Source: Eledone cirrhosa
Lineage: Eukaryota
Direction of reading: 5' to 3'
Length of the DNA stretch: 64,000 nucleotides
Assembly: GCA_964016885.1 (NCBI GenBank)
Contig: OZ024743.1
Location: 279,434,001-279,498,000 of the forward strand
The translations under genes and the position numbers were made by a program. Below the pieces are notes generated by a model. That model was not told where the DNA came from and did not search any database. It saw nothing but the letters and a program-made list of their open reading frames with translations. This document shows positions 1,398-63,127 of this stretch, in pieces; position 1 is the stretch's first letter, and each line of letters begins with the position of its first letter.

Positions 1398-1715
<318 letters not shown>

Positions 1716-1908
1716 TTATATAAATATATATATATTTATATATATATATATATATATATATCCATATATATATATATGAATATATACATATATATATATA
1801 TATATGTGAATATAGACATAGAATATTCGAAAATATTCTGTATGTTTATAATAAACATTTTGAAGACCTAATCGCTATAGAATAGAATACGTCACGTATT
1901 ACAATTAG

Positions 1909-1998
1909 ATTCTCGATAAAAGCAAGGGAAGTAAGTCTACGCGTTTCATTCTTGTTAGAATTCATCAGGACTACATATCCAGTGCTTTTATCGAGAAT
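1909..1998 (-). ncRNA. Minimal type I hammerhead ribozyme, representative - strand copy (TCATCAG at 1962+311n, n=0..10)
   Basis: Reverse complement of the 5511-5600 motif. Confidence 0.9.
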
Positions 1999-4900
1999 GA
2001 CACAGCTAGAGACTTATAGAATACTTAGCTGTGTACAGGAACTGGTTTGAAAGAGCGGTTGCCGGTCCGGCAGAAATTAGAAATTGGAATAAATGCTCTG
2101 AAATAGCGATATATATGTGAATATAGACATAGAATATTCGAAAATATTCTGTATGTTTATAATAAACATTTTGAAGACCTAATCGCTATAGAATAGAATA
2201 CGTCACGTATTACAATTAGATTCTCGATAAAAGCAAGGGAAGTAAGTCTACGCGTTTCATTCTTGTTAGAATTCATCAGGACTACATATCCAGTGCTTTT
2301 ATCGAGAATGACACAGCTAGAGACTTATAGAATACTTAGCTGTGTACAGGAACTGGTTTGAAAGAGCGGTTGCCGGTCCGGCAGAAATTAGAAATTGGAA
2401 TAAATGCTCTGAAATAGCGATATATATGTGAATATAGACATAGAATATTCGAAAATATTCTGTATGTTTATAATAAACATTTTGAAGACCTAATCGCTAT
2501 AGAATAGAATACGTCACGTATTACAATTAGATTCTCGATAAAAGCAAGGGAAGTAAGTCTACGCGTTTCATTCTTGTTAGAATTCATCAGGACTACATAT
2601 CCAGTGCTTTTATCGAGAATGACACAGCTAGAGACTTATAGAATACTTAGCTGTGTACAGGAACTGGTTTGAAAGAGCGGTTGCCGGTCCGGCAGAAATT
2701 AGAAATTGGAATAAATGCTCTGAAATAGCGATATATATGTGAATATAGACATAGAATATTCGAAAATATTCTGTATGTTTATAATAAACATTTTGAAGAC
2801 CTAATCGCTATAGAATAGAATACGTCACGTATTACAATTAGATTCTCGATAAAAGCAAGGGAAGTAAGTCTACGCGTTTCATTCTTGTTAGAATTCATCA
2901 GGACTACATATCCAGTGCTTTTATCGAGAATGACACAGCTAGAGACTTATAGAATACTTAGCTGTGTACAGGAACTGGTTTGAAAGAGCGGTTGCCGGTC
3001 CGGCAGAAATTAGAAATTGGAATAAATGCTCTGAAATAGCGATATATATGTGAATATAGACATAGAATATTCGAAAATATTCTGTATGTTTATAATAAAC
3101 ATTTTGAAGACCTAATCGCTATAGAATAGAATACGTCACGTATTACAATTAGATTCTCGATAAAAGCAAGGGAAGTAAGTCTACGCGTTTCATTCTTGTT
3201 AGAATTCATCAGGACTACATATCCAGTGCTTTTATCGAGAATGACACAGCTAGAGACTTATAGAATACTTAGCTGTGTACAGGAACTGGTTTGAAAGAGC
3301 GGTTGCCGGTCCGGCAGAAATTAGAAATTGGAATAAATGCTCTGAAATAGCGATATATATGTGAATATAGACATAGAATATTCGAAAATATTCTGTATGT
3401 TTATAATAAACATTTTGAAGACCTAATCGCTATAGAATAGAATACGTCACGTATTACAATTAGATTCTCGATAAAAGCAAGGGAAGTAAGTCTACGCGTT
3501 TCATTCTTGTTAGAATTCATCAGGACTACATATCCAGTGCTTTTATCGAGAATGACACAGCTAGAGACTTATAGAATACTTAGCTGTGTACAGGAACTGG
3601 TTTGAAAGAGCGGTTGCCGGTCCGGCAGAAATTAGAAATTGGAATAAATGCTCTGAAATAGCGATATATATGTGAATATAGACATAGAATATTCGAAAAT
3701 ATTCTGTATGTTTATAATAAACATTTTGAAGACCTAATCGCTATAGAATAGAATACGTCACGTATTACAATTAGATTCTCGATAAAAGCAAGGGAAGTAA
3801 GTCTACGCGTTTCATTCTTGTTAGAATTCATCAGGACTACATATCCAGTGCTTTTATCGAGAATGACACAGCTAGAGACTTATAGAATACTTAGCTGTGT
3901 ACAGGAACTGGTTTGAAAGAGCGGTTGCCGGTCCGGCAGAAATTAGAAATTGGAATAAATGCTCTGAAATAGCGATATATATGTGAATATAGACATAGAA
4001 TATTCGAAAATATTCTGTATGTTTATAATAAACATTTTGAAGACCTAATCGCTATAGAATAGAATACGTCACGTATTACAATTAGATTCTCGATAAAAGC
4101 AAGGGAAGTAAGTCTACGCGTTTCATTCTTGTTAGAATTCATCAGGACTACATATCCAGTGCTTTTATCGAGAATGACACAGCTAGAGACTTATAGAATA
4201 CTTAGCTGTGTACAGGAACTGGTTTGAAAGAGCGGTTGCCGGTCCGGCAGAAATTAGAAATTGGAATAAATGCTCTGAAATAGCGATATATATGTGAATA
4301 TAGACATAGAATATTCGAAAATATTCTGTATGTTTATAATAAACATTTTGAAGACCTAATCGCTATAGAATAGAATACGTCACGTATTACAATTAGATTC
4401 TCGATAAAAGCAAGGGAAGTAAGTCTACGCGTTTCATTCTTGTTAGAATTCATCAGGACTACATATCCAGTGCTTTTATCGAGAATGACACAGCTAGAGA
4501 CTTATAGAATACTTAGCTGTGTACAGGAACTGGTTTGAAAGAGCGGTTGCCGGTCCGGCAGAAATTAGAAATTGGAATAAATGCTCTGAAATAGCGATAT
4601 ATATGTGAATATAGACATAGAATATTCGAAAATATTCTGTATGTTTATAATAAACATTTTGAAGACCTAATCGCTATAGAATAGAATACGTCACGTATTA
4701 CAATTAGATTCTCGATAAAAGCAAGGGAAGTAAGTCTACGCGTTTCATTCTTGTTAGAATTCATCAGGACTACATATCCAGTGCTTTTATCGAGAATGAC
4801 ACAGCTAGAGACTTATAGAATACTTAGCTGTGTACAGGAACTGGTTTGAAAGAGCGGTTGCCGGTCCGGCAGAAATTAGAAATTGGAATAAATGCTCTGA

Positions 4901-5510
4901 AATAGCGATATATATGTGAATATAGACATAGAATATTCGAAAATATTCTGTATGTTTATAATAAACATTTTGAAGACCTAATCGCTATAGAATAGAATAC
5001 GTCACGTATTACAATTAGATTCTCGATAAAAGCAAGGGAAGTAAGTCTACGCGTTTCATTCTTGTTAGAATTCATCAGGACTACATATCCAGTGCTTTTA
5101 TCGAGAATGACACAGCTAGAGACTTATAGAATACTTAGCTGTGTACAGGAACTGGTTTGAAAGAGCGGTTGCCGGTCCGGCAGAAATTAGAAATTGGAAT
5201 AAATGCTCTGAAATAGCGATATATATGTGAATATAGACATAGAATATTCGAAAATATTCTGTATGTTTATAATAAACATTTTGAAGACCTAATCGCTATA
5301 GAATAGAATATTCTATTCTATAGCGATTAGGTCTTCAAAATGTTTATTATAAACATACAGAATATTTTCGAATATTCTATGTCTATATTCACATATATAT
5401 CGCTATTTCAGAGCATTTATTCCAATTTCTAATTTCTGCCGGACCGGCAACCGCTCTTTCAAACCAGTTCCTGTACACAGCTAAGTATTCTATAAGTCTC
5501 TAGCTGTGTC

Positions 5511-5600
5511 ATTCTCGATAAAAGCACTGGATATGTAGTCCTGATGAATTCTAACAAGAATGAAACGCGTAGACTTACTTCCCTTGCTTTTATCGAGAAT
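5511..5600 (+). ncRNA. Minimal type I hammerhead ribozyme, representative + strand copy (cores at 5541+311n, n=0..8)
   Basis: GTAGTC-CTGATGA-ATTCT aaca AGAAT-GAAA-CGCG-TA-GACTTAC: intact core, 5-bp stem II, palindromic stem III (ACGCGT), predicted cleavage after GUA at 5571. Stem I is extended by a perfect 16-bp helix, 5511-5526 with 5585-5600. Confidence 0.9.
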
Positions 5601-8219
5601 CTAATTGTAATACGTGACGTATTCTATTCTATAGCGATTAGGTCTTCAAAATGTTTATTATAAACATACAGAATATTTTCGAATATTCTATGTCTATATT
5701 CACATATATATCGCTATTTCAGAGCATTTATTCCAATTTCTAATTTCTGCCGGACCGGCAACCGCTCTTTCAAACCAGTTCCTGTACACAGCTAAGTATT
5801 CTATAAGTCTCTAGCTGTGTCATTCTCGATAAAAGCACTGGATATGTAGTCCTGATGAATTCTAACAAGAATGAAACGCGTAGACTTACTTCCCTTGCTT
5901 TTATCGAGAATCTAATTGTAATACGTGACGTATTCTATTCTATAGCGATTAGGTCTTCAAAATGTTTATTATAAACATACAGAATATTTTCGAATATTCT
6001 ATGTCTATATTCACATATATATCGCTATTTCAGAGCATTTATTCCAATTTCTAATTTCTGCCGGACCGGCAACCGCTCTTTCAAACCAGTTCCTGTACAC
6101 AGCTAAGTATTCTATAAGTCTCTAGCTGTGTCATTCTCGATAAAAGCACTGGATATGTAGTCCTGATGAATTCTAACAAGAATGAAACGCGTAGACTTAC
6201 TTCCCTTGCTTTTATCGAGAATCTAATTGTAATACGTGACGTATTCTATTCTATAGCGATTAGGTCTTCAAAATGTTTATTATAAACATACAGAATATTT
6301 TCGAATATTCTATGTCTATATTCACATATATATCGCTATTTCAGAGCATTTATTCCAATTTCTAATTTCTGCCGGACCGGCAACCGCTCTTTCAAACCAG
6401 TTCCTGTACACAGCTAAGTATTCTATAAGTCTCTAGCTGTGTCATTCTCGATAAAAGCACTGGATATGTAGTCCTGATGAATTCTAACAAGAATGAAACG
6501 CGTAGACTTACTTCCCTTGCTTTTATCGAGAATCTAATTGTAATACGTGACGTATTCTATTCTATAGCGATTAGGTCTTCAAAATGTTTATTATAAACAT
6601 ACAGAATATTTTCGAATATTCTATGTCTATATTCACATATATATCGCTATTTCAGAGCATTTATTCCAATTTCTAATTTCTGCCGGACCGGCAACCGCTC
6701 TTTCAAACCAGTTCCTGTACACAGCTAAGTATTCTATAAGTCTCTAGCTGTGTCATTCTCGATAAAAGCACTGGATATGTAGTCCTGATGAATTCTAACA
6801 AGAATGAAACGCGTAGACTTACTTCCCTTGCTTTTATCGAGAATCTAATTGTAATACGTGACGTATTCTATTCTATAGCGATTAGGTCTTCAAAATGTTT
6901 ATTATAAACATACAGAATATTTTCGAATATTCTATGTCTATATTCACATATATATCGCTATTTCAGAGCATTTATTCCAATTTCTAATTTCTGCCGGACC
7001 GGCAACCGCTCTTTCAAACCAGTTCCTGTACACAGCTAAGTATTCTATAAGTCTCTAGCTGTGTCATTCTCGATAAAAGCACTGGATATGTAGTCCTGAT
7101 GAATTCTAACAAGAATGAAACGCGTAGACTTACTTCCCTTGCTTTTATCGAGAATCTAATTGTAATACGTGACGTATTCTATTCTATAGCGATTAGGTCT
7201 TCAAAATGTTTATTATAAACATACAGAATATTTTCGAATATTCTATGTCTATATTCACATATATATCGCTATTTCAGAGCATTTATTCCAATTTCTAATT
7301 TCTGCCGGACCGGCAACCGCTCTTTCAAACCAGTTCCTGTACACAGCTAAGTATTCTATAAGTCTCTAGCTGTGTCATTCTCGATAAAAGCACTGGATAT
7401 GTAGTCCTGATGAATTCTAACAAGAATGAAACGCGTAGACTTACTTCCCTTGCTTTTATCGAGAATCTAATTGTAATACGTGACGTATTCTATTCTATAG
7501 CGATTAGGTCTTCAAAATGTTTATTATAAACATACAGAATATTTTCGAATATTCTATGTCTATATTCACATATATATCGCTATTTCAGAGCATTTATTCC
7601 AATTTCTAATTTCTGCCGGACCGGCAACCGCTCTTTCAAACCAGTTCCTGTACACAGCTAAGTATTCTATAAGTCTCTAGCTGTGTCATTCTCGATAAAA
7701 GCACTGGATATGTAGTCCTGATGAATTCTAACAAGAATGAAACGCGTAGACTTACTTCCCTTGCTTTTATCGAGAATCTAATTGTAATACGTGACGTATT
7801 CTATTCTATAGCGATTAGGTCTTCAAAATGTTTATTATAAACATACAGAATATTTTCGAATATTCTATGTCTATATTCACATATATATCGCTATTTCAGA
7901 GCATTTATTCCAATTTCTAATTTCTGCCGGACCGGCAACCGCTCTTTCAAACCAGTTCCTGTACACAGCTAAGTATTCTATAAGTCTCTAGCTGTGTCAT
8001 TCTCGATAAAAGCACTGGATATGTAGTCCTGATGAATTCTAACAAGAATGAAACGCGTAGACTTACTTCCCTTGCTTTTATCGAGAATCTAATTGTAATA
8101 CGTGACGTATTCTATTCTATAGCGATTAGGTCTTCAAAATGTTTATTATAAACATACAGAATATTTTCGAATATTCTATGTCTATATTCACATATATATC
8201 GCTATTTCAGAGCATTTAT

Positions 8220-8314
<95 letters not shown>

Positions 8315-8319
8315 TATAT

Positions 8320-8350
<31 letters not shown>

Positions 8351-8371
8351 TACATATATACATATATATAC

Positions 8372-8436
<65 letters not shown>

Positions 8437-8751
8437 ATATATATATACTTCAGCAATAAAATTACTCTAAATTGACTCATATACAAACAAAAACACTAAA
8501 ACCTACACATGCCACACACGACACATACATTATCATGATCACTCCCACTGTTACACATCGATACACCAAAGAATACACACTTTCAATCTCCTACAGACAG
8601 ACAAATGCATGGACAGAGTGTTACTACCACCTCCACACCATCGCCATCACACGTCTATTCAATATTCTGCCTCGATGAGATGATGTTGAATCGTGAATAT
8701 CTCTATTAAGATTATTACGATTATCATTATTGATGAAAACGATGGTAGCGT

Positions 8752-28713: not shown

Positions 28714-28998
28714 CGTATTTCTAAAGAAACACGGTATGTTTACAGGAACATTTAGGAAGCCGTAGCTATCTAAACACCGGAGCTGCGCCCTCTGGTGGTG
28801 TCCAGCAGAAGCAGGGGGACAACCGGTGGGAGGGATCGTCCTGATGAAGGCCAATCAAGCCTGAAATGCATAGACGGTTGTCCCCTCTTGCTTCTGCTGG
28901 ACACCAGCAGAAAGCGTTAGCCCCGGTGTTTGCATAGCTACGGCTTCCTAAATGTTTCCTGTAAACGTACTGTTTTTCTTTAGAAATACGAAATCTCT
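28706..28998. mobile_element. Fold-back element with ~120-bp arms enclosing a hammerhead
   Basis: 28706-28825 is an imperfect inverted repeat of 28875-28998. Confidence 0.8.
28835..28878 (+). ncRNA. Minimal type I hammerhead ribozyme
   Basis: ATCGTC-CTGATGA-AGGC caatcaa GCCT-GAAA-TGCA-TA-GACGGT; palindrome ATGCAT. Confidence 0.88.
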
Positions 28999-34669: not shown

Positions 34670-34895
34670 AAATAATAAAAGTGATGTGTCACCTAATAAC
34701 CAATTTCTAATAGATTTTTCTGGGAAATGGTATTTTGATATCTTCCAACCCGCTTCTCTTCAGTCTCCCACCCAACTTTTAGACGATGGCCAATGGTAGA
34801 ACAACAGCTATCTATAGCTGTCTAAGTATATATGTTTCTCTGAACAATGGAAATAATCTCTCTCTCCCCCTCCCCCATATTTCTCTCTCTCTCGC

Positions 34896-34935
<40 letters not shown>

Positions 34936-37080
34936 CTGGGACGGTCTTTGAAGGACAAAGACGGACGCGTGATACCTGAGCCGAAGCAGATGTGCGCGGC
35001 CTTTCAGCGGCACTTTGCTCAACTGTTTGGGCAGAGCGGCGCGCCGGTAGGGGCTATGGATTTCGGTCCATACCTCGACGGCCTACCGCGACTCTCGGAC
35101 AGCGAGTCGAAGTTCTGCGAAAGGCCGATTTCGGCCGCTGAGATAAGGGACGCGCTGAGCCAATGCGGCAAACACAAATCTCCAGGTCTCGAGGGTCTAC
35201 CCTACGAATTTTACGTAGCAATGCCGGACTTGCTCTCCGGTCTCCTGGAAGCGGTCTACTGTAACTGGCAGCAGAACGGGAGAATTCCCAGTTCTGTGAT
35301 CAAGGGTGTAGTCACGTTAGTCAGGAAGGACGAGAATAAGGGGGATGACATAGGCAACTTCCGGCCAATAACTCTGCTAAACACAGAGTTACAGATTTTG
35401 GCCAAGGTGTTGGCAAAGAGGCTAGCGCTTGTCGACGAAAACCTGGTGGGAGAAGCGCAGACATGCGCAATCCCGACCACGTCCATACACGACAATCTCC
35501 ACCTCATGCGATACATCATAGAGAGGGTGGGGTGTAAACCCGGCTTCGGTGGAGCCCTGATCAACTTGGATCAGTCTAAGGCTTTCGATAGGGTTGACCA
35601 TCGTTACCTGGAGGCGGTGCTCGAGGCGGCAGGCTTCGGACCTGTGTTCAGTGGCTGGATTGCTGCAATGCACAGCAACAACATCTGTTCAAGGGTCAAG
35701 GTGAACGGCTACCTCTCAGAGCCGTTCCATATCACGCGATCCATCCAACAGGGATGCCCTCTCTCCTCCCTTCTGTACGTACTAACTCTCGAGCCACTAC
35801 TGCTGAAGTTGGAGCTATTGCAGGGCATCCCTTTGGAACCGGGACTGCGAAAAGCGGCGTCAGCCTACGCCGACGACATGACAGTAATGGTGTCGAACAC
35901 TTCGCAAATCGGGGAGGTCGGCACCTTACTGGAGGAATATGAAAGGTTCACAGGAACGAAGCTGAACCGGGACAAATCTGTCGGTTTGCAACTCGGAACG
36001 TGGAGAGGCAAACCGATGCCTTCCGATGGCGTCGTCGGACGCTGGACGGAAGGACCAGTAAAGCTGCTCGGGGTCTGGTTTGGTCAGGACCTCCAGGTGG
36101 AGAAGAACTGGAACGAGGTGACGGCCAAGGTGTTTGCGCTCACCCAGAAGTGGGCCGAGTGCAAACTATCCTTGAAAGGTCGAGCGGAGGTGGCGAACAC
36201 TTTTATAGCGCCCATCATCTACTACCGCTTGACCGTCGTGCTTTGTCCAGCCAAAACGCTCACCAAAATGGAGCGCGTGCTCTTCCAATTCCTTTGGAAG
36301 AAAGGGGCTTCATTGGTGAGAAGATCCATCTGCTGCCAACAACCTTCAAACGGAGGGCTGAGGATGCCGTGTCTGACGATGCGCAAACACGCGCTCAGGC
36401 TGCGGCACCTCCACACATTCCTCACCGGACAACCGGTGTGGGTCCCGTTCGTGAGGCGAACCTTCCCACAACTCGTCTCGCTGACCGAGCTGCAGTCCTG
36501 GGCCAAGCAAAGACCGAGGAAAATTGGTGACTGGCACATCGAATGTGCTCAGGCGCTCACAGTCCTCTGGCAAACGAACCCGGCGATCAGTGGAGACTCC
36601 ACTTCGACATTCTATAGAGGATTGGTCGGCAGCAAGTGCGACGACGCGCTCGGAGAAACTCTAGGCGTAGAGGAGGAGGAACTGGCCAGTCTGTTCGGTA
36701 GGACCTCCCGCCTGGGACCAATGGACAAATTCCAAAAGTCCCTGACCTGGCAGTCCTACCGAGGAGCTCTACCAGTTCGAGACGACCTCTACAGACACGG
36801 GAACCCGGGCAGAGACCCCTCGAAAAAGATCTGTCCGAGATGCGTGCGCGACGAGGAAACCGCCGCGCACGTATTTGTACACTTCCCGGGCGTTACCGAC
36901 CTGCGGAGCTATGTAGAAAGACTATTGTCGCGGGTGGGACCAATCCAGTTGACCACCTACTCCATTGTCATGATCAAACCGCCACCCTCCTTCAAAAACG
37001 AGGGAGAGGTGGTTTTCCTATGTGTTATGGCTATGGAGAAAGAGGTTATATGGTGGACGAGATTAAAAGGGCTGAGTTGA
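34936..37080 (+). CDS. ORF2 reverse transcriptase (partial: no endonuclease, premature stop)
   Basis: Motifs KSPGLEGLPYEFY, NFRPITLLNTE, LDQSKAFDRVDH, QQGCPLS, AYADD and the zinc-knuckle remnant CPRC..ETAAHVF. The first ~50 codons of the 34786 ORF come from flank and microsatellite. Confidence 0.9.
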   Translation: MGRSLKDKDGRVIPEPKQMCAAFQRHFAQLFGQSGAPVGAMDFGPYLDGLPRLSDSESKFCERPISAAEIRDALSQCGKHKSPGLEGLPYEFYVAMPDLLSGLLEAVYCNWQQNGRIPSSVIKGVVTLVRKDENKGDDIGNFRPITLLNTELQILAKVLAKRLALVDENLVGEAQTCAIPTTSIHDNLHLMRYIIERVGCKPGFGGALINLDQSKAFDRVDHRYLEAVLEAAGFGPVFSGWIAAMHSNNICSRVKVNGYLSEPFHITRSIQQGCPLSSLLYVLTLEPLLLKLELLQGIPLEPGLRKAASAYADDMTVMVSNTSQIGEVGTLLEEYERFTGTKLNRDKSVGLQLGTWRGKPMPSDGVVGRWTEGPVKLLGVWFGQDLQVEKNWNEVTAKVFALTQKWAECKLSLKGRAEVANTFIAPIIYYRLTVVLCPAKTLTKMERVLFQFLWKKGASLVRRSICCQQPSNGGLRMPCLTMRKHALRLRHLHTFLTGQPVWVPFVRRTFPQLVSLTELQSWAKQRPRKIGDWHIECAQALTVLWQTNPAISGDSTSTFYRGLVGSKCDDALGETLGVEEEELASLFGRTSRLGPMDKFQKSLTWQSYRGALPVRDDLYRHGNPGRDPSKKICPRCVRDEETAAHVFVHFPGVTDLRSYVERLLSRVGPIQLTTYSIVMIKPPPSFKNEGEVVFLCVMAMEKEVIWWTRLKGLS

Positions 37081-55112: not shown

Positions 55113-55116
<4 letters not shown>

Positions 55117-56000
55117 GGAAAAAATGAAACAAAATGAAACAAAATTTCATTTCCCACTCTTAGTACGGCTGTTACTTAAATATAAGTATGTACACGTACA
55201 TACATATATGTATACAGACGTACAGTAGTATGTATATATATATACATATATGCACACATATATATATTTACGTATGGATTCACCGAACATTTATTATAAT
55301 GCTAGGTGTGTTTGTAAACAAACATCCCGTATTAAGCCGTAGTGTCTAGCAACCATCGTTGGTCGTTTGTTCAACACTGACAAAGGAACGCTGTATTAGT
55401 TTCAAGCTTATTAGCTATCGTCAGCAACATATACCTTCCTGCCAGATTGTTGAACGTATATACTTACCTTATGCATATTAATGGCTGAGTAGCCCAATTT
55501 GCATATGTGTGCATGTATGTATATATATATACATACTACTGTACGTCTGTCTACATATATGTATGTACGTGTACATACTTATATTTAAGTAACAGCCGTA
55601 CTAACAGTGGGAAATGAAATTTTATTTCATTTTTCCGTTTATCGTTTTCGGTGCACCCGGCCGATTAACCAACTCGATATGCAAATTGGGCTACTCAGCC
55701 ATTAATATGCATAAGGTAAGTATATACGTTCCACAATCTGGCAGGAAGGTATACGTTGCTGACGATAGCTAATAAGATTGAAACTAGTACAGCGTTCCTT
55801 TGTCAGTGTTGAACAAACGAGCAACGATGGTTGCTAGACACTACGGCTTAATACGGGATGTTTGTTTACAAACACACCGAGCATTATAATAAATGTTCGG
55901 TGAATCCATACGTACATATATATATGTGTGCATGTATGTATATATATATACATACTACTGTACGTCTGTATACATATATATATGTGCGTGTACATACTTA
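55113..56000. mobile_element. Head-to-head inverted pair of the 420-bp HHR family (HHRs 55388-55430 on -, 55753-55795 on +)
   Basis: Orientation switch near 55503. The + copy reads ACGTTG-CTGACGA-tAGCT aata AGATt-GAAA-CTAG-TA-CAGCGT. Both flanks are (TA)n. Confidence 0.85.
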
Positions 56001-56157
56001 TATATGTATATATATATATAAGCAAAAGAATGAGTGAGTGAAAGAGTTAAAAGCCGTTAAAACATGTCTTTATATAGCTCTTACACGTGTTTCACCCAGG
56101 GGGGACTCACCGGAGGTAGATACGATATTGTAACCTATTATATCTATATATATATAA

Positions 56158-56315: not shown

Positions 56316-56362
<47 letters not shown>

Positions 56363-56515
56363 AATTAAAATACTAGAGTGTGTTGGAGTTAAACACCCTC
56401 TTCGTATTATAGAAATGACAGTAAAGGTATAGCTGAATGTAATTAAACAGAGGCGAAGAATTATGAAAATAAACCAAAGAAGCCTTCAATACATCAAAAA
56501 TCTTCAAAAATCTTT

Positions 56516-56560
56516 ATTAGCCAACAATGTTTCGTCCTATTAAGGACTCATCAGGGCAAT
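56516..56560 (-). ncRNA. Type I hammerhead in inverted pLTR
   Basis: Minus strand: ATTGCC-CTGATGA-GTCCT taat AGGAC-GAAA-CATTG-TT-GGCTAAT. Confidence 0.8.
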
Positions 56561-57061
56561 TAAAGGTATAAGAAGCACTATCGGCCAATACAAGGCAAAA
56601 ACTCAGAAGAATATGGAGTGTACATACATTAAAGCATAGGAAAATTATCGCGTAAAAATTATCAAGTAAAAATTGCTAAGGAAGTGAATAACATTTTGAA
56701 CCATATTACAAATATAGTCCAATGCAAAAACTAAAGCTAAACAAAGGTGGTGATATAGAGCGGGAATTATTGTACTATATATAATATAATATAATATAAT
56801 ATAATATAATATAATATAATATCATATAATTGATAATGATAATAATAATAATAATATTAAAAGGCCCAATATACATATATATATATATACATATGTACAC
56901 ATATATACATATATATCAATACACATTTCCATCAATACAAGCACAAAATAACCCTTATTAAGAGTTTAAATATAAATAAGAATAATAAGAATAATAAGAA
57001 TAATAAGAATAAAAATAAAAATAAAAATAAAAATAAAAATAAAAATAAAAATAAAAATAAA

Positions 57062-57092
<31 letters not shown>

Positions 57093-57333
57093 TAAAAATA
57101 TAATACATATATTATTTACAGTATAAAATGAAGAAGAAATGATTAAAAGTAAACATATAATATATAATAAACTATATAATTATATAATAGATAATCTCCG
57201 GTTAATTTGCACAAACAATATAAATGTTACAATAACACTATAATAACAATATTATAATATAATGCAATATAACTTAACAAATCATATAGAGTTACAGACC
57301 GGGTGAGAAAAAAATATTGTACAGAACTAAATT

Positions 57334-58269
57334 ATGTTGGAAAAATTATGTTGGAAAAATATCAAAACCATTACAAGAAAACACCCTAATAATGTGGTTT
57401 TAACTAGTCCTTGTAGTAACCCAAATCTTAATAAGGGGATATTAGATAACGGTAGAGTTGGTAAGGATAAAAATAGAAGGAGACTAAATACTTATTTTAA
57501 CCCGCCATATAATCAGGAAGTATTAACTAACATCCCCAGGTCTTTCTTTTCTATCTTAGAGAAAAATTTCCCTCCTACTAATAAATACCATAGTATTTTT
57601 AATAAAAATGTAATTAAACTTTCATTCTCTACCACCCCTGATATTAGTTCTCATTTAGCTAGCAATGACAAAGGGAAAATTAGGGATGGATACTCCTCTC
57701 TACGTACTACTAGTCCGAATAGATCCATAAATACCTTACCACCTGAGCAGACCTTATCTCATAGTAACCCTACGTGTGATGCATCACTATTTCAGCCGAT
57801 CAATAGCACCCGGAAGTGTAACTGTAGAGTGAGTGCTAACTGCCCTTTAAACGGTAACTGCCTCTCTAAGAACATCGTTTATGCTTGTGTAGTTAAAACA
57901 AATTCCTCTAATAGCACATATATAGGCTCTACATCTAACACTTTTAAGACTAGGTTTAATTCTCATATCTCTAATTTTAAACATGTTAAGTTTAAGAATT
58001 CTACTTCTTTAGCACACCATATCTGGGATCTTAAGGGGGCTAATATACCATATAGCCTTAATTGGCGTATAGTAGCACGCTCTAATAACCTTTCAACACA
58101 TACTCAATTTTGTAATCTCTGTATCTTTGAGACCCACTCTATAATTTTCTCTAGGGAAACCTTACTTAATAGAAAGTTCGAGATATTCTCTTCTTGCCCC
58201 CATGCCATTTCAAATTCTTACTTTTATTATAAACCTAAAGGTTCTAGTAGTGTAAATTGTATCCATTAG
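57334..58269 (+). CDS. PLE C-terminal region: linker, Cys-rich motif and GIY-YIG endonuclease (RT missing)
   Basis: YFNPPYN...IFNKNVIKLSFS, CNCRVSANCPLNGNC, NIVY...TYIGST..FKTRFNSH, CNLCIFE, LLNRKFEIFSSCPH. The first ~17 codons come from the inverted arm. Confidence 0.88.
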   Translation: MLEKLCWKNIKTITRKHPNNVVLTSPCSNPNLNKGILDNGRVGKDKNRRRLNTYFNPPYNQEVLTNIPRSFFSILEKNFPPTNKYHSIFNKNVIKLSFSTTPDISSHLASNDKGKIRDGYSSLRTTSPNRSINTLPPEQTLSHSNPTCDASLFQPINSTRKCNCRVSANCPLNGNCLSKNIVYACVVKTNSSNSTYIGSTSNTFKTRFNSHISNFKHVKFKNSTSLAHHIWDLKGANIPYSLNWRIVARSNNLSTHTQFCNLCIFETHSIIFSRETLLNRKFEIFSSCPHAISNSYFYYKPKGSSSVNCIH

Positions 58270-60075
58270 CTGCTATATTCCCTTATCTTTTTTAGTTTAG
58301 GTTCATTTTGTTTACCACCATCATTATCATTATTATTATTATTGGTTTTTAACAGCTTTTCATTCTAGTTTTCATAGTCCTTTGGCTACCATACCATATC
58401 TATATTATATTTTCACTATTAACACCTTATGAGTTTATATCTGATTATATATTTTATTTTATATTATTTTATTTTATTTTATTTTATTTGGATTCTTCTT
58501 TGGATAATTAACCCCCTCCACCCACCCACCCCACACACACTTGTCATTCGCACCTTCAAATATACTATAATTATATTCAATTCCCTTTTATGCTTCTTTC
58601 TATTGTATAATACAGTATATTGATTATGATTTTATGCTCCTTCGTATCCTCCATACATTTCTTTTTTCTGTCCCCATTGGCCTACCATAATTCTACTTAA
58701 AGTCCGTTTATTAGTTTACGTTATTCAACTGATACTAGAATATTTCCTTCTTTTCCAGATATTTTTATAGTGATATCTTAAACTTTGGAGTTTTTGATTA
58801 CTTAAACCATAGCTAATTTTGTATCGACTTATGTATTTTAAATACTTTCAATATTAATTAATTTAATAGGGTTTTCTAGTCATTTATCCGGGTTTGTTTC
58901 CTAAATTTGTTTACTTAACTGCATGTGACACCTAAGTAAATACTTTTGTTTTTGTTTTTCGATTTCCGGTTGATTTTATTTATATATTTATACTACCGTG
59001 CGTAGTTTTCTGTCTGTTTCTTATTCACTTATTCACAAATGTCTGTCCACCAACCACGTAATTATGTATATTATACTATGTTCAATATTTTATATTGAAA
59101 TTTTTATATCATTCCACTCTTTGTAAACGTACTACTGATCATTATTATTTACCGATTATTAAATGTACCATTATGTTATGTTAAATTTTGTAAATTCTGT
59201 AATATGTTTATATTTTTATAATTTTTGTAATGTTTGGATAATATTTATTTACACCAATTGTAGAGAAATGTGACCTCCATCTGTTTTCTTGCAATGGTTT
59301 TGATATTTTTCCAACATAATTTTTCCAACATAATTTAGTTCTGTACAATATTTTTTTCTCACCCGATCTGTAACTCTATATGATTTGTTAAGTTATATGC
59401 CATTATATTATAATATTGTTATTATAGTGTTATTGTAACATTTATATTGTTTGTGCAAATTAACCGGAGATTATCTATTATATAATTATATAGTTTATTA
59501 TATATTATATGTTTACTTTTAATCATTTCTACTTCATTTTATACTGTAAATAATATATGTATTATATTTTTATTTTTATTTTTATTTTTATTCTTATTTT
59601 TATTTTTATTCTTATTATTCTTATTATTCTTATTATTCTTATTTATATTTAAACTCTTAATAAGGGTTAGTTTGTGCTTGTATTGATGGAAATGTGTATT
59701 GATATATATGTATATATGTGTACATATGTATATATATATATGTATATTGGGCCTTTTAATATTATTATTATTATTATCATTATCAATTATATTATATTAT
59801 ATTATATTATATTATATTATATTATATTATATTATATTATATTATATTATATTATATATAGTACAATAATTCCCGCTCTATATCACCACCTTTGTTTAGC
59901 TTTAGTTTTTGCTTTGGACTATATTTGTAATATGGTTCAAAAGGTTATTCACTTCCTTAGCAATTTTTACTTGATAATTTTTACCCGATAATTTTCCTAT
60001 GCTTTAATGTATGTACACTCCATATTCTTCTGAGTTTTTGGCTTGTATTGGCCGATAGTGCTTCTTATAGCTTTA

Positions 60076-60120
60076 ATTGCCCTGATGAGTCCATAATAGG
60101 ACGAAACATTGTTGGCTAAT
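60076..60120 (+). ncRNA. Type I hammerhead in 3' pLTR
   Basis: ATTGCC-CTGATGA-GTCC ataata GGAC-GAAA-CATTG-TT-GGCTAAT. Confidence 0.8.
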
Positions 60121-60232
60121 ATAGATTTTTGATGTATTGAAGGCTTCTTTGGTTTATTTTCATAATATATATATATATATATATATAGTGACGAAACATA
60201 AGTGAATTGCATGAACACATAATCCTTTATTT

Positions 60233-62195: not shown

Positions 62196-62235
<40 letters not shown>

Positions 62236-62239
62236 GTGT

Positions 62240-63090
62240 GTACATATATCTAAGTAACAGCCGTACTAAGAATGGGAAATGAAATTTCGTTTCATTTTTT
62301 TCCGTTTATCGTTTTCGGTGCACCCGGCCGATTAACCCACTCGATATGCAAATTGGGCTACTCAGCCGTTAATATGCATAAGGTAAGTATATACGTTCAA
62401 CAATCTGGCAGGAAGGTATACGTGACTGACGATGGCTAATAAACTTGAAACTAGTACAGCGATTCTTTGTCAGTGTTGAACAAATGAGCAACGATGGTTG
62501 CTGGACACTACGGCTTAATACGGGATGTTTGTTTACAAACACACCGAGCATTATAATAAATGTTCGGTGAATCCATACGTACATAGATATAAGTGTGCAT
62601 GTATGTATATATATATTCATACTACTGTACGTCTGTATACATATATGTATGTACGTGTACGTACATATATTTAAGTAACAGCCGTACTAAGAGTGGGAAA
62701 TGAAATTTCGTTTCATTTTTTCCGTTTATCGTTTTCGGTGCACCCGGCCGATTAACCCACTCGATATGCAAATTGGGCTACTCAGCCGTTAATATGCATA
62801 AAGTAAGTATATACGTTCAACAATCTGGCAGGAAGGTATACGTTGCTGACGATAGCTAATAAGCTTGAAACTAGTACAGCGTTCCTTTGTCAGTGTTGAA
62901 CAAATGAGCAACGATGGTTGCTGGACACTACGTGTTAATCCGGGATGATTGTTTACAAACACACCGAGCATTATAATAAATGTTCGGTGAATCCATACGT
63001 ACATATATATATATATGTGCATGTATGTATATATATATACATACTACTGTACGTCTGTATACATATATATATGTACGTGTACATACTTAT
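62240..63090 (+). mobile_element. Tandem dimer of the 420-bp HHR family (HHRs 62420-62462 and 62840-62882)
   Basis: Lines 62401 and 62821 are in register (period 420); ACGTTG-CTGACGA-tAGCT aata AGCTt-GAAA-CTAG-TA-CAGCGT. Confidence 0.88.
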
Positions 63091-63127
63091 ATATATATAT
63101 ATATTTACATACATATATATATATATT

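What the first reader, a model, noticed from the sequence alone, without database searches (positions are those of the whole stretch)
2394..8225. 5.8-kb spacer-less mirror: the ribozyme array flips at 5309|5310
Seen: 2394-5309 is the reverse complement of 5310-8225 (2916-bp arms, zero spacer, centre AAT|ATT). HHR-sense strands point outward, with 11 on - and 9 on +. The two arms end at different registers of the unit, each running into (TA)n. Known: PLE insertions often carry an inverted 3'-end copy at their 5' side. Inference: this is the same fold-back or twin-priming step acting on a multimeric template. Read-through from either side would give an antisense multimer followed by a self-cleaving sense multimer, i.e. 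both kb-long dsRNA and monomers. Perfect palindromes this long are unstable and are also a known artefact of amplification or fold-back reads.
Basis: partly seen in the sequence, partly recalled or inferred. Interest (0 to 1): 0.82.

Follow-up and report, generated by a model that had tools for sequence, protein, structure and literature searches.

The report
Twin-primed mirror arrays of ribozyme retrozymes
This 5.8-kb palindrome is one of over a thousand similar insertions of a short hammerhead-ribozyme repeat in this animal genome, most of them two arrays joined head to head with one long and one short end, which likely form when a Penelope-like enzyme copies one circular RNA from both strands of a cut (TA)n site; the exact zero spacer here looks like chance.

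Summary
It is not unique. The genome has 1,024 'tail' ends and 1,195 'short' ends of this unit joined to (TA)n. Of 147 loci examined, 129 are head-to-head mirrors and none is tail-to-tail. All 125 resolvable mirrors pair one short end (unit position 131/140) with one tail end (about 166), like the two reverse-transcription start sites of a Penelope-like enzyme. Either arm can be longer (67 vs 58), and junction offsets are uniform with microhomology, so simple fold-back is rejected and the zero spacer is within chance (1 of 124 other loci). Locus-specific variants are shared by all units of both arms (2 discordant in 384 tests), pointing to one monomeric, probably circular, RNA template. Recurrent A>G changes suggest RNA editing written into DNA. 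Not shown: this junction in reads, ribozyme activity, expression, the driver element. Verdict: a new variant of non-LTR retrozyme architecture that bears on the open Penelope mechanism.

The parts
1717..1797 (.). (TA)n-rich left target sequence
1798..5310 (-). Left arm: 11.30 identical 311-bp retrozyme units, 11 hammerheads; outer 3' end at unit position 140 (short, no-tail end, inside the unit's own ATATATAT tract)
5309..5310 (.). Head-to-head junction: both arms stop at unit position 49, 2-nt self-complementary TA overlap
   Evidence: the junction 28-mer occurs once in G000; not verified in reads
5309..8225 (+). Right arm: 9.38 identical units, 9 hammerheads; outer 3' end at unit position 166 (tail end)
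5535..5578 (+). Type I hammerhead motif (one of 20): stem I, CUGAUGA core, stem II, GAAAC, 2-bp palindromic stem III (ACGCGU), predicted cleavage after GUA at 5571
   Evidence: sequence; Rfam HH9 only E=0.15, below gathering score; fold z=-3.8
5572..5882 (+). Predicted self-cleaved monomer (311 nt), position 1 = 5572; predicted circular RNA template
   Evidence: (z=-5.7)
5700..5770 (+). Block holding both start sites (short site 5704-5711, tail site 5737), conserved in an older sister family; inferred PLE recognition/initiation signal
8226..8447 (.). (TA)n right target sequence

Best explanation
This is a genuine-looking, very young insertion of a non-autonomous hammerhead repeat (non-LTR retrozyme) into (TA)n, likely made by a Penelope-like enzyme that nicked both target strands and primed reverse transcription from each on the same, probably circular, monomeric RNA. 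One strand starts at the tail site (position ~166), the other at the short site (131/140) 26-35 nt upstream. Each enzyme is inferred to roll round the circle with strand displacement for a variable number of turns; the two cDNA ends are then inferred to be joined by microhomology-mediated end joining at an essentially random register. The result is always head-to-head with one tail and one short end; here both happened to stop at position 49 on a TA overlap, giving zero spacer. Shown: architecture, end rule, target, junction statistics, shared haplotypes. Inferred: PLE enzyme, circular template, simultaneity, repair route.
For:: 129 of 147 loci are minus-then-plus mirrors, none reversed; 125 of 125 resolvable mirrors have one tail and one short end (76 of 76 not chosen for that, 54 of 54 adjacent -/+ end pairs were of unlike class). 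Tail arm longer in 67, short arm in 58 (p=0.47). Junction offset uniform (n=124, KS p=0.65); among 86 insert-free junctions, microhomology >=2 nt in 57% vs 18% null; 39 of 125 carry short inserts; 50 haplotypes in 147 loci; 25 private fixed variants, 21 seen in both arms; 2 discordant of 384 arm-to-arm tests; in L134 both arms read haplotype X for two turns from the outer end, then Y; L121 and L059 share a first-turn-only variant in both arms: symmetry counted from the outer ends, as predicted for one template. PMC11167929 (read): a PLE protein nicks and extends both strands of AT-rich DNA, starts at two adjacent internal sites whose gap is the 30-40 nt tail, and is predicted to be a dimer. 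Single-arm loci mostly join their 5' end straight to TA-rich DNA, as expected if the second priming failed.
Against: The driver PLE was not found. No RNA data, so circle and cleavage are unshown. L134, L121 and L059 need a multimeric template or a template switch, so not every locus comes from one monomer circle. L108, L139 are arm-discordant; L049 and L156 show later local duplication; L157 and L049 carry a variant in both arms at unlike turns. Arm lengths are weakly correlated (rho 0.27). All loci come from one assembly and, apart from the window, from the first 273 Mb of contig C1. This junction was not seen in reads.
Confidence: 0.7

Rival explanations
1. Twin priming as above, but on a linear uncleaved multimer transcribed from an existing array, with no circle.
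For: L134, L121, L059 show the same unit-to-unit change at the same turn in both arms. PMC11167929 found unprocessed RNA to be the dominant substrate in vitro.
Against: 25 private variants are fixed in every unit of a locus, up to 25 of 25 units, and A>G pairs in 36-38 units of L039: this needs a monomer bottleneck at or shortly before each insertion. Only 2-3 paired one-unit variants were seen over 344 units of overlap.
Confidence: 0.14
2. Fold-back or self-priming: one cDNA (or an antisense RNA) hairpins and is copied back, as proposed for PLE inverted repeats in PMC3846280.
For: This locus and L083 are spacer-less; 9 of 124 have spacers <=5 nt; both arms share haplotypes; some junctions use the unit's own stems (L036, L090).
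Against: Spacer counts match the random-join null (<=5 nt: 9 of 124 vs 4.1-7.9%; <=40 nt: 28 of 124 vs 27-30%). The copied arm should be shorter, yet each class is longer by more than one unit in 52 and 37 loci. L134, L108 and L121 are not symmetric about the junction. No short/short pairs.
Confidence: 0.06
3. A short mirror was inserted and each arm grew later by slippage or unequal crossing-over (satellite model).
For: L156 and L049 show higher-order periodic variants; the bioRxiv preprint discusses this route.
Against: 40 of 106 loci over 1.5 kb have no one-unit variant at all, including this 20-unit locus and the 37-unit L039; many arms are under one unit; arm lengths fall off smoothly (medians 4.3 and 3.1 units).
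Confidence: 0.05
4. Sequencing or assembly artefact (fold-back reads), at least for the exact centre at 5309|5310.
For: Perfect long palindromes are a known artefact; the junction was not found in the one short-read contig set laid, which could not show single-copy joints.
Against: The two flanks are different and unique; the ends obey the family's tail/short rule; 128 other mirrors have diverse junctions with microhomology and inserts; independent-looking contigs in run X1 show the short end running into TA (X1 may be the assembly's own sample). A 2-nt overlap is the commonest junction class (22 of 86).
Confidence: 0.05

Closest known systems
Non-LTR retrozymes of metazoans (PMC7229834; bioRxiv 10.64898/2026.07.22.740005)
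   Same: Non-coding ~300-bp AT-rich tandem unit, one type I hammerhead per unit, structured monomer, dispersed arrays, proposed circular RNA template and PLE helper.
   Different: Described as plain tandem arrays. 'inverted' does not occur in PMC7229834's main text and no mirror layout appears in the preprint parts read. Here most loci are two-armed mirrors with fixed, unlike ends in (TA)n.
EN+ Penelope-like element insertions with inverted 5'-truncated copy and tail (PMC8557442, PMC3846280, PMC11167929)
   Same: Head-to-head inverted copy, 30-40 nt tail at one end only, (TA)n target bias, hammerhead in the repeat.
   Different: No ORF; both arms are multimers of the whole unit, often many turns; the driver was not identified; junctions do not show the palindrome excess on which the self-priming proposal rests.
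LINE-1 twin priming (reviewed in PMC10760644)
   Same: Two target-primed cDNAs joined head to head by microhomology.
   Different: In L1 it is a minority outcome on a linear RNA and the arms cover different parts (recalled); here it is the rule, start sites are fixed, and both arms repeat the same unit.

Membership tests
Non-LTR retrozyme | Tandem repeats of about 170-400 bp, low GC, non-coding | tested here: met
   311 bp, GC about 0.34, no credible ORF in the array
Non-LTR retrozyme | Type I hammerhead motif in every unit | tested here: met
   Core, stems I-II and minimal palindromic stem III read in 20 of 20 complete units; Rfam hit weak (E=0.15); sister family has a U3/A8-type core variant (numbering recalled)
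Non-LTR retrozyme | Self-cleavage of the transcript | not testable with these tools
   needs in vitro transcription; a 2-bp stem III suggests a dimeric ribozyme (recalled)
Non-LTR retrozyme | Expressed as linear and circular monomers | tested here: inconclusive
   no RNA holder listed; indirect support from locus-fixed variants
Non-LTR retrozyme | Dispersed, mobile copies | tested here: met
   1,024 and 1,195 TA-joined ends genome-wide
PLE-mobilised insertion | Inverted 5'-truncated copy head to head | tested here: met
   129 of 147 loci
PLE-mobilised insertion | 30-40 nt tail at one end only | tested here: met
   ends at 131/140 vs mostly 166-173; 125 of 125 unlike pairs
PLE-mobilised insertion | Microsatellite / AT-rich target | tested here: met
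   (TA)n flanks; partly built into the search patterns, but also true of the 8 loci found by the ribozyme pattern where ends were readable
PLE-mobilised insertion | Homology to the pLTR of an autonomous PLE | tested here: inconclusive
   none with the one PLE family examined or in 30 loci fetched by the sister-family motif; many PLE families untested
Autonomous PLE | RT plus GIY-YIG ORF | tested here: not met
   all mirror loci consist of the unit only
PLE-mobilised insertion | Target-site duplication | not testable with these tools
   masked by (TA)n; no empty allele available

The most novel reading that the evidence does not exclude
These arrays are a genome-wide fossil record of the Penelope reaction: a dimeric enzyme primes both target strands at paired start sites on one circular RNA and rolls round it twice over, and A-to-I edits of that single RNA circle are written into every unit of the new locus, sometimes mid-reaction (L108), making RNA editing a heritable source of the family's variation.
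Probability: 0.4. Interest if true: 0.8.

Novelty: new variant of a known kind. Interest (0 to 1): 0.62.

Why it matters
How Penelope-like elements make their inverted copies and one-sided tail is called unresolved in the papers read, and rolling-circle copying of retrozyme circles is a proposal without direct genomic proof in them. A periodic template turns each insertion into a record of the reaction: the strict tail/short pairing, free arm lengths and random junctions favour two-strand priming over self-priming, and locus-wide private variants point to a single monomer. It gives a small defined RNA (311 nt, two mapped start sites) for an in vitro test. It also implies over a thousand kb-scale inverted repeats with short spacers in one genome, a potential source of instability and dsRNA (untested).

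Tried and rejected
DNA search of G000 with the monomer returned nothing because common words are skipped; exact patterns were used instead. Rfam at gathering threshold: 0 hits in the window. Reads: no RNA holder listed, which says nothing on expression. Laying 4 of 24 listed runs on one monomer listed no strand-changing joint; single-copy junctions fall under the 1% floor, so this is no test of 5309|5310. A genome-wide list of the window's own subfamily could not be obtained, so the sample stays on C1. Driver search: the window's PLE fragment (57331-58269) led to a 911-aa RT+GIY-YIG frame (L212) whose repeats show no meaningful match to the unit (best local scores 27-33 in AT-rich patches, no shuffle control); 30 loci fetched by the sister-family motif held no linked PLE ORF. 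The idea that the unit's AATACGT-G-ACGTATT hairpin, adjacent to this junction, directs the flip was dropped: 5' registers spread over the whole unit. Rows dropped before counts: L106 (duplicate of L053 across a gap), L040 merged with its neighbour L039, the second array in L097 (= L049), alignments over 6% diverged, variants within 8 nt of the 5' end or 12 nt of the 3' end of an arm; 4 complex junctions were left out of junction statistics. Earlier-findings look-ups returned nothing.
Full report
OBSERVATION. The palindrome is exactly as described: centre 5309|5310, 2,916-bp perfect arms, first mismatch at 2393/8226. It is made of identical 311-bp units, 11.3 on the minus strand (1798-5310) and 9.4 on the plus strand (5309-8225), with 11 and 9 hammerhead cores. 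Numbering the unit from the predicted cleavage site (position 1 = window 5572), both arms stop at position 49 with a 2-nt TA overlap; the left arm's outer end is position 140, the right arm's 166, both joined to (TA)n. The junction 28-mer occurs once in the 3.0-Gb assembly.

THE UNIT. It is non-coding, GC about 0.34, folds better than 100 of 100 shuffles (z=-5.7), and carries a type I hammerhead: stem I, CUGAUGA, stem II, GAAAC, a 2-bp stem III within the palindrome ACGCGU, and GUA. Rfam gives nothing at gathering level and only HH9 at E=0.15, so the identification rests on the motif read directly. A stem III this short usually implies a dimeric ribozyme (recalled). Cleavage was not tested.

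THE FAMILY. An exact 40-mer of this ribozyme variant has 1,144 matches; the first 100 listed fall in 8 loci, all 8 minus-then-plus. End patterns found 1,024 ends at position 166 and 1,195 at 131/140 joined to (TA)n, so more than a thousand loci. Among 180 listed ends in the first 222 Mb of C1, 54 adjacent minus/plus pairs were found and all 54 paired a 166 end with a 131/140 end. I fetched loci and analysed 147 including the window: 8 chosen by ribozyme, 49 as end pairs, 89 by one end. 129 are head-to-head mirrors made only of the unit; none is tail-to-tail. 18 show one arm: 2 are cut by a gap or the fetch limit, and most others join their 5' end to TA-rich DNA. Of the 129, 4 have an unreadable end; 125 of 125 others have one tail end (166 in 110 of 138 tail ends, nearly all the rest 167-173) and one short end; 76 of these were not chosen for that property. 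The 131 and 140 ends differ only by one base inside the unit's own AT tract and are probably one priming site (inference).

JUNCTIONS. The tail arm is longer in 67 loci and the short arm in 58 (p=0.47; medians 4.3 and 3.1 units). The offset between the two 5' registers is uniform (n=124, KS p=0.65). Of 125 simple junctions, 39 have inserts, often copied from nearby unit sequence; among the other 86, 57% have 2 or more nt of microhomology against 18% for random register pairs. Spacer 0 occurs in 1 of 124 other loci, <=5 nt in 9, <=40 nt in 28; random joining predicts 0.6-3.1%, 4.1-7.9% and 27-30%.

TEMPLATE. The 147 loci hold 50 haplotypes. Variants are typically fixed in all units of a locus: 25 are private to one locus, 21 of them seen in both arms, and only 2 of 384 arm-to-arm tests disagree. 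That needs a single-monomer bottleneck shared by both arms, most simply one RNA circle (inference). Three loci show a change at the same turn counted from the outer ends of both arms: L134 (two turns of one haplotype, then another), L121 and L059; L059 is also junction-symmetric, the other two are not. These support one template read from paired starts, but require a multimer or a switch, so the circle is not the only route. L049 and L156 show later local duplication; L049 and L157 have two-arm variants at unlike turns, unexplained.

A>G BIAS. Among minor locus-fixed substitutions, counting separate haplotype backgrounds, A>G outnumbers T>C 20 to 6 on the ribozyme strand (p=0.0014), whereas one-unit variants run 12 to 29 (Fisher p=0.0002). 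Positions 21, 277 and 260 recur on 5, 5 and 3 backgrounds; 9 of 10 sites are predicted paired and 15 of 20 events have a 5' U (p=0.002), the ADAR preference as I recall it. Against: by distinct sites the ratio is only 10 to 6, backgrounds are a rough proxy for independent origins, and recombination between haplotypes could mimic recurrence. L108 has A277G in all 7 units of one arm but only the 2 innermost of 6 in the other, which fits an edit during copying or gene conversion near the centre. I put editing at about even odds.

MECHANISM. PMC11167929 (parts 1-2 of 4 read) reports that a PLE protein nicks and extends both strands of AT-rich DNA, starts at two adjacent internal sites whose gap is the tail, and is predicted to be a dimer. 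PMC8557442 (passages) describes inverted 5'-truncated copies, a tail at one end, (TA)n bias, and calls the cycle undefined. PMC3846280 (passages) proposes self-priming from junction palindromes. The data here fit paired two-strand priming and not self-priming: free arm lengths, no palindrome excess, no like-ended pairs, and variants symmetric about the outer ends. Rolling with strand displacement and end joining by microhomology are inferred. The driver was not found. An older sister family of about 320 bp (1,434 matches to a motif variant, a few of them variant units of the main family) keeps the block around both start sites and shows mirrors too, which marks that block as the likely recognition signal.

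READS. Twenty runs from 17 studies hold half or more of the unit's words, none on record as RNA. In X1 (possibly the assembly's own sample) 536 contigs lay on the monomer, with the family's common variants and short ends running into TA; no strand-changing joint was listed, but single-copy joints lie below the floor, so this junction remains unverified.

KNOWN AND NEW. Both halves are known: tandem hammerhead retrozymes (PMC7229834, passages; bioRxiv 10.64898/2026.07.22.740005, parts 1-3 of 5, supplements not seen) and PLE inverted copies with tails; twin priming is a proposed L1 model (PMC10760644, passages). Eight literature searches (other papers seen as listings only) showed no report of retrozyme arrays as routine two-armed mirrors, of a strict tail/short pairing, or of editing fixed in retrozyme loci; the library lacks most subscription papers, including older Penelope work, so absence is not established. 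Verdict: real architecture, new variant of a known kind, interest 0.62; the value lies in the family-wide rule, not in the zero spacer.

Noticed in passing
runs X4, X5, X7; 18 organism labels in 17 studies: Three runs labelled as other organisms each hold one 340-nt contig that closes on itself, at least 99% like the unit, in two different haplotypes. Carry-over, diet, close relatives or horizontal spread cannot be told apart here.
   Followed up: partly
window 56360-60170: 5'-truncated PLE: 312-aa frame with GIY-YIG-like C-terminus (57331-58269; no Pfam hit), canonical hammerheads at 56554 (-) and 60082 (+), inverted arms about 90% alike, in (TA)n. Relatives with 900-1,130 aa frames exist (L210-L213).
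   Followed up: partly
window 55113-56012 and 62217-63092: A repeat of about 420 bp with a hammerhead-like motif (seen and in L213), arranged as a mirror at 55.1-56.0 kb; the tandem at 62.2-63.1 kb appears to be the same family. Probably a second retrozyme with the same layout.
   Followed up: no
window 1513-1720: Short element with a 48-bp inverted arm, both ends in (TA)n, directly beside the array; the same element flanks L035 and L218. PLE-type insertions nest in shared TA tracts.
   Followed up: no
window 28831-28880: Another type I hammerhead-like motif with a palindromic stem III.
   Followed up: no
L139:3770-4620, L177, L214-L243: Older ~320-bp sister retrozyme family with a UUGAUAA core variant and mirror insertions; L237/L238 hold a ~163-bp deleted unit that lacks the ribozyme but is still tandem.
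   Followed up: partly
window 34783-37080: 765-aa non-LTR reverse transcriptase frame (PF00078, E=1.7e-24), unrelated to the finding.
   Followed up: no
147 loci: One-unit variants show a T>C excess (29 vs 12 A>G, p=0.04), possibly reverse-transcriptase wobble errors.
   Followed up: partly
L032, L157, L178, L179: Complex junctions with extra short inverted or direct pieces, like repeated template switching during repair.
   Followed up: no
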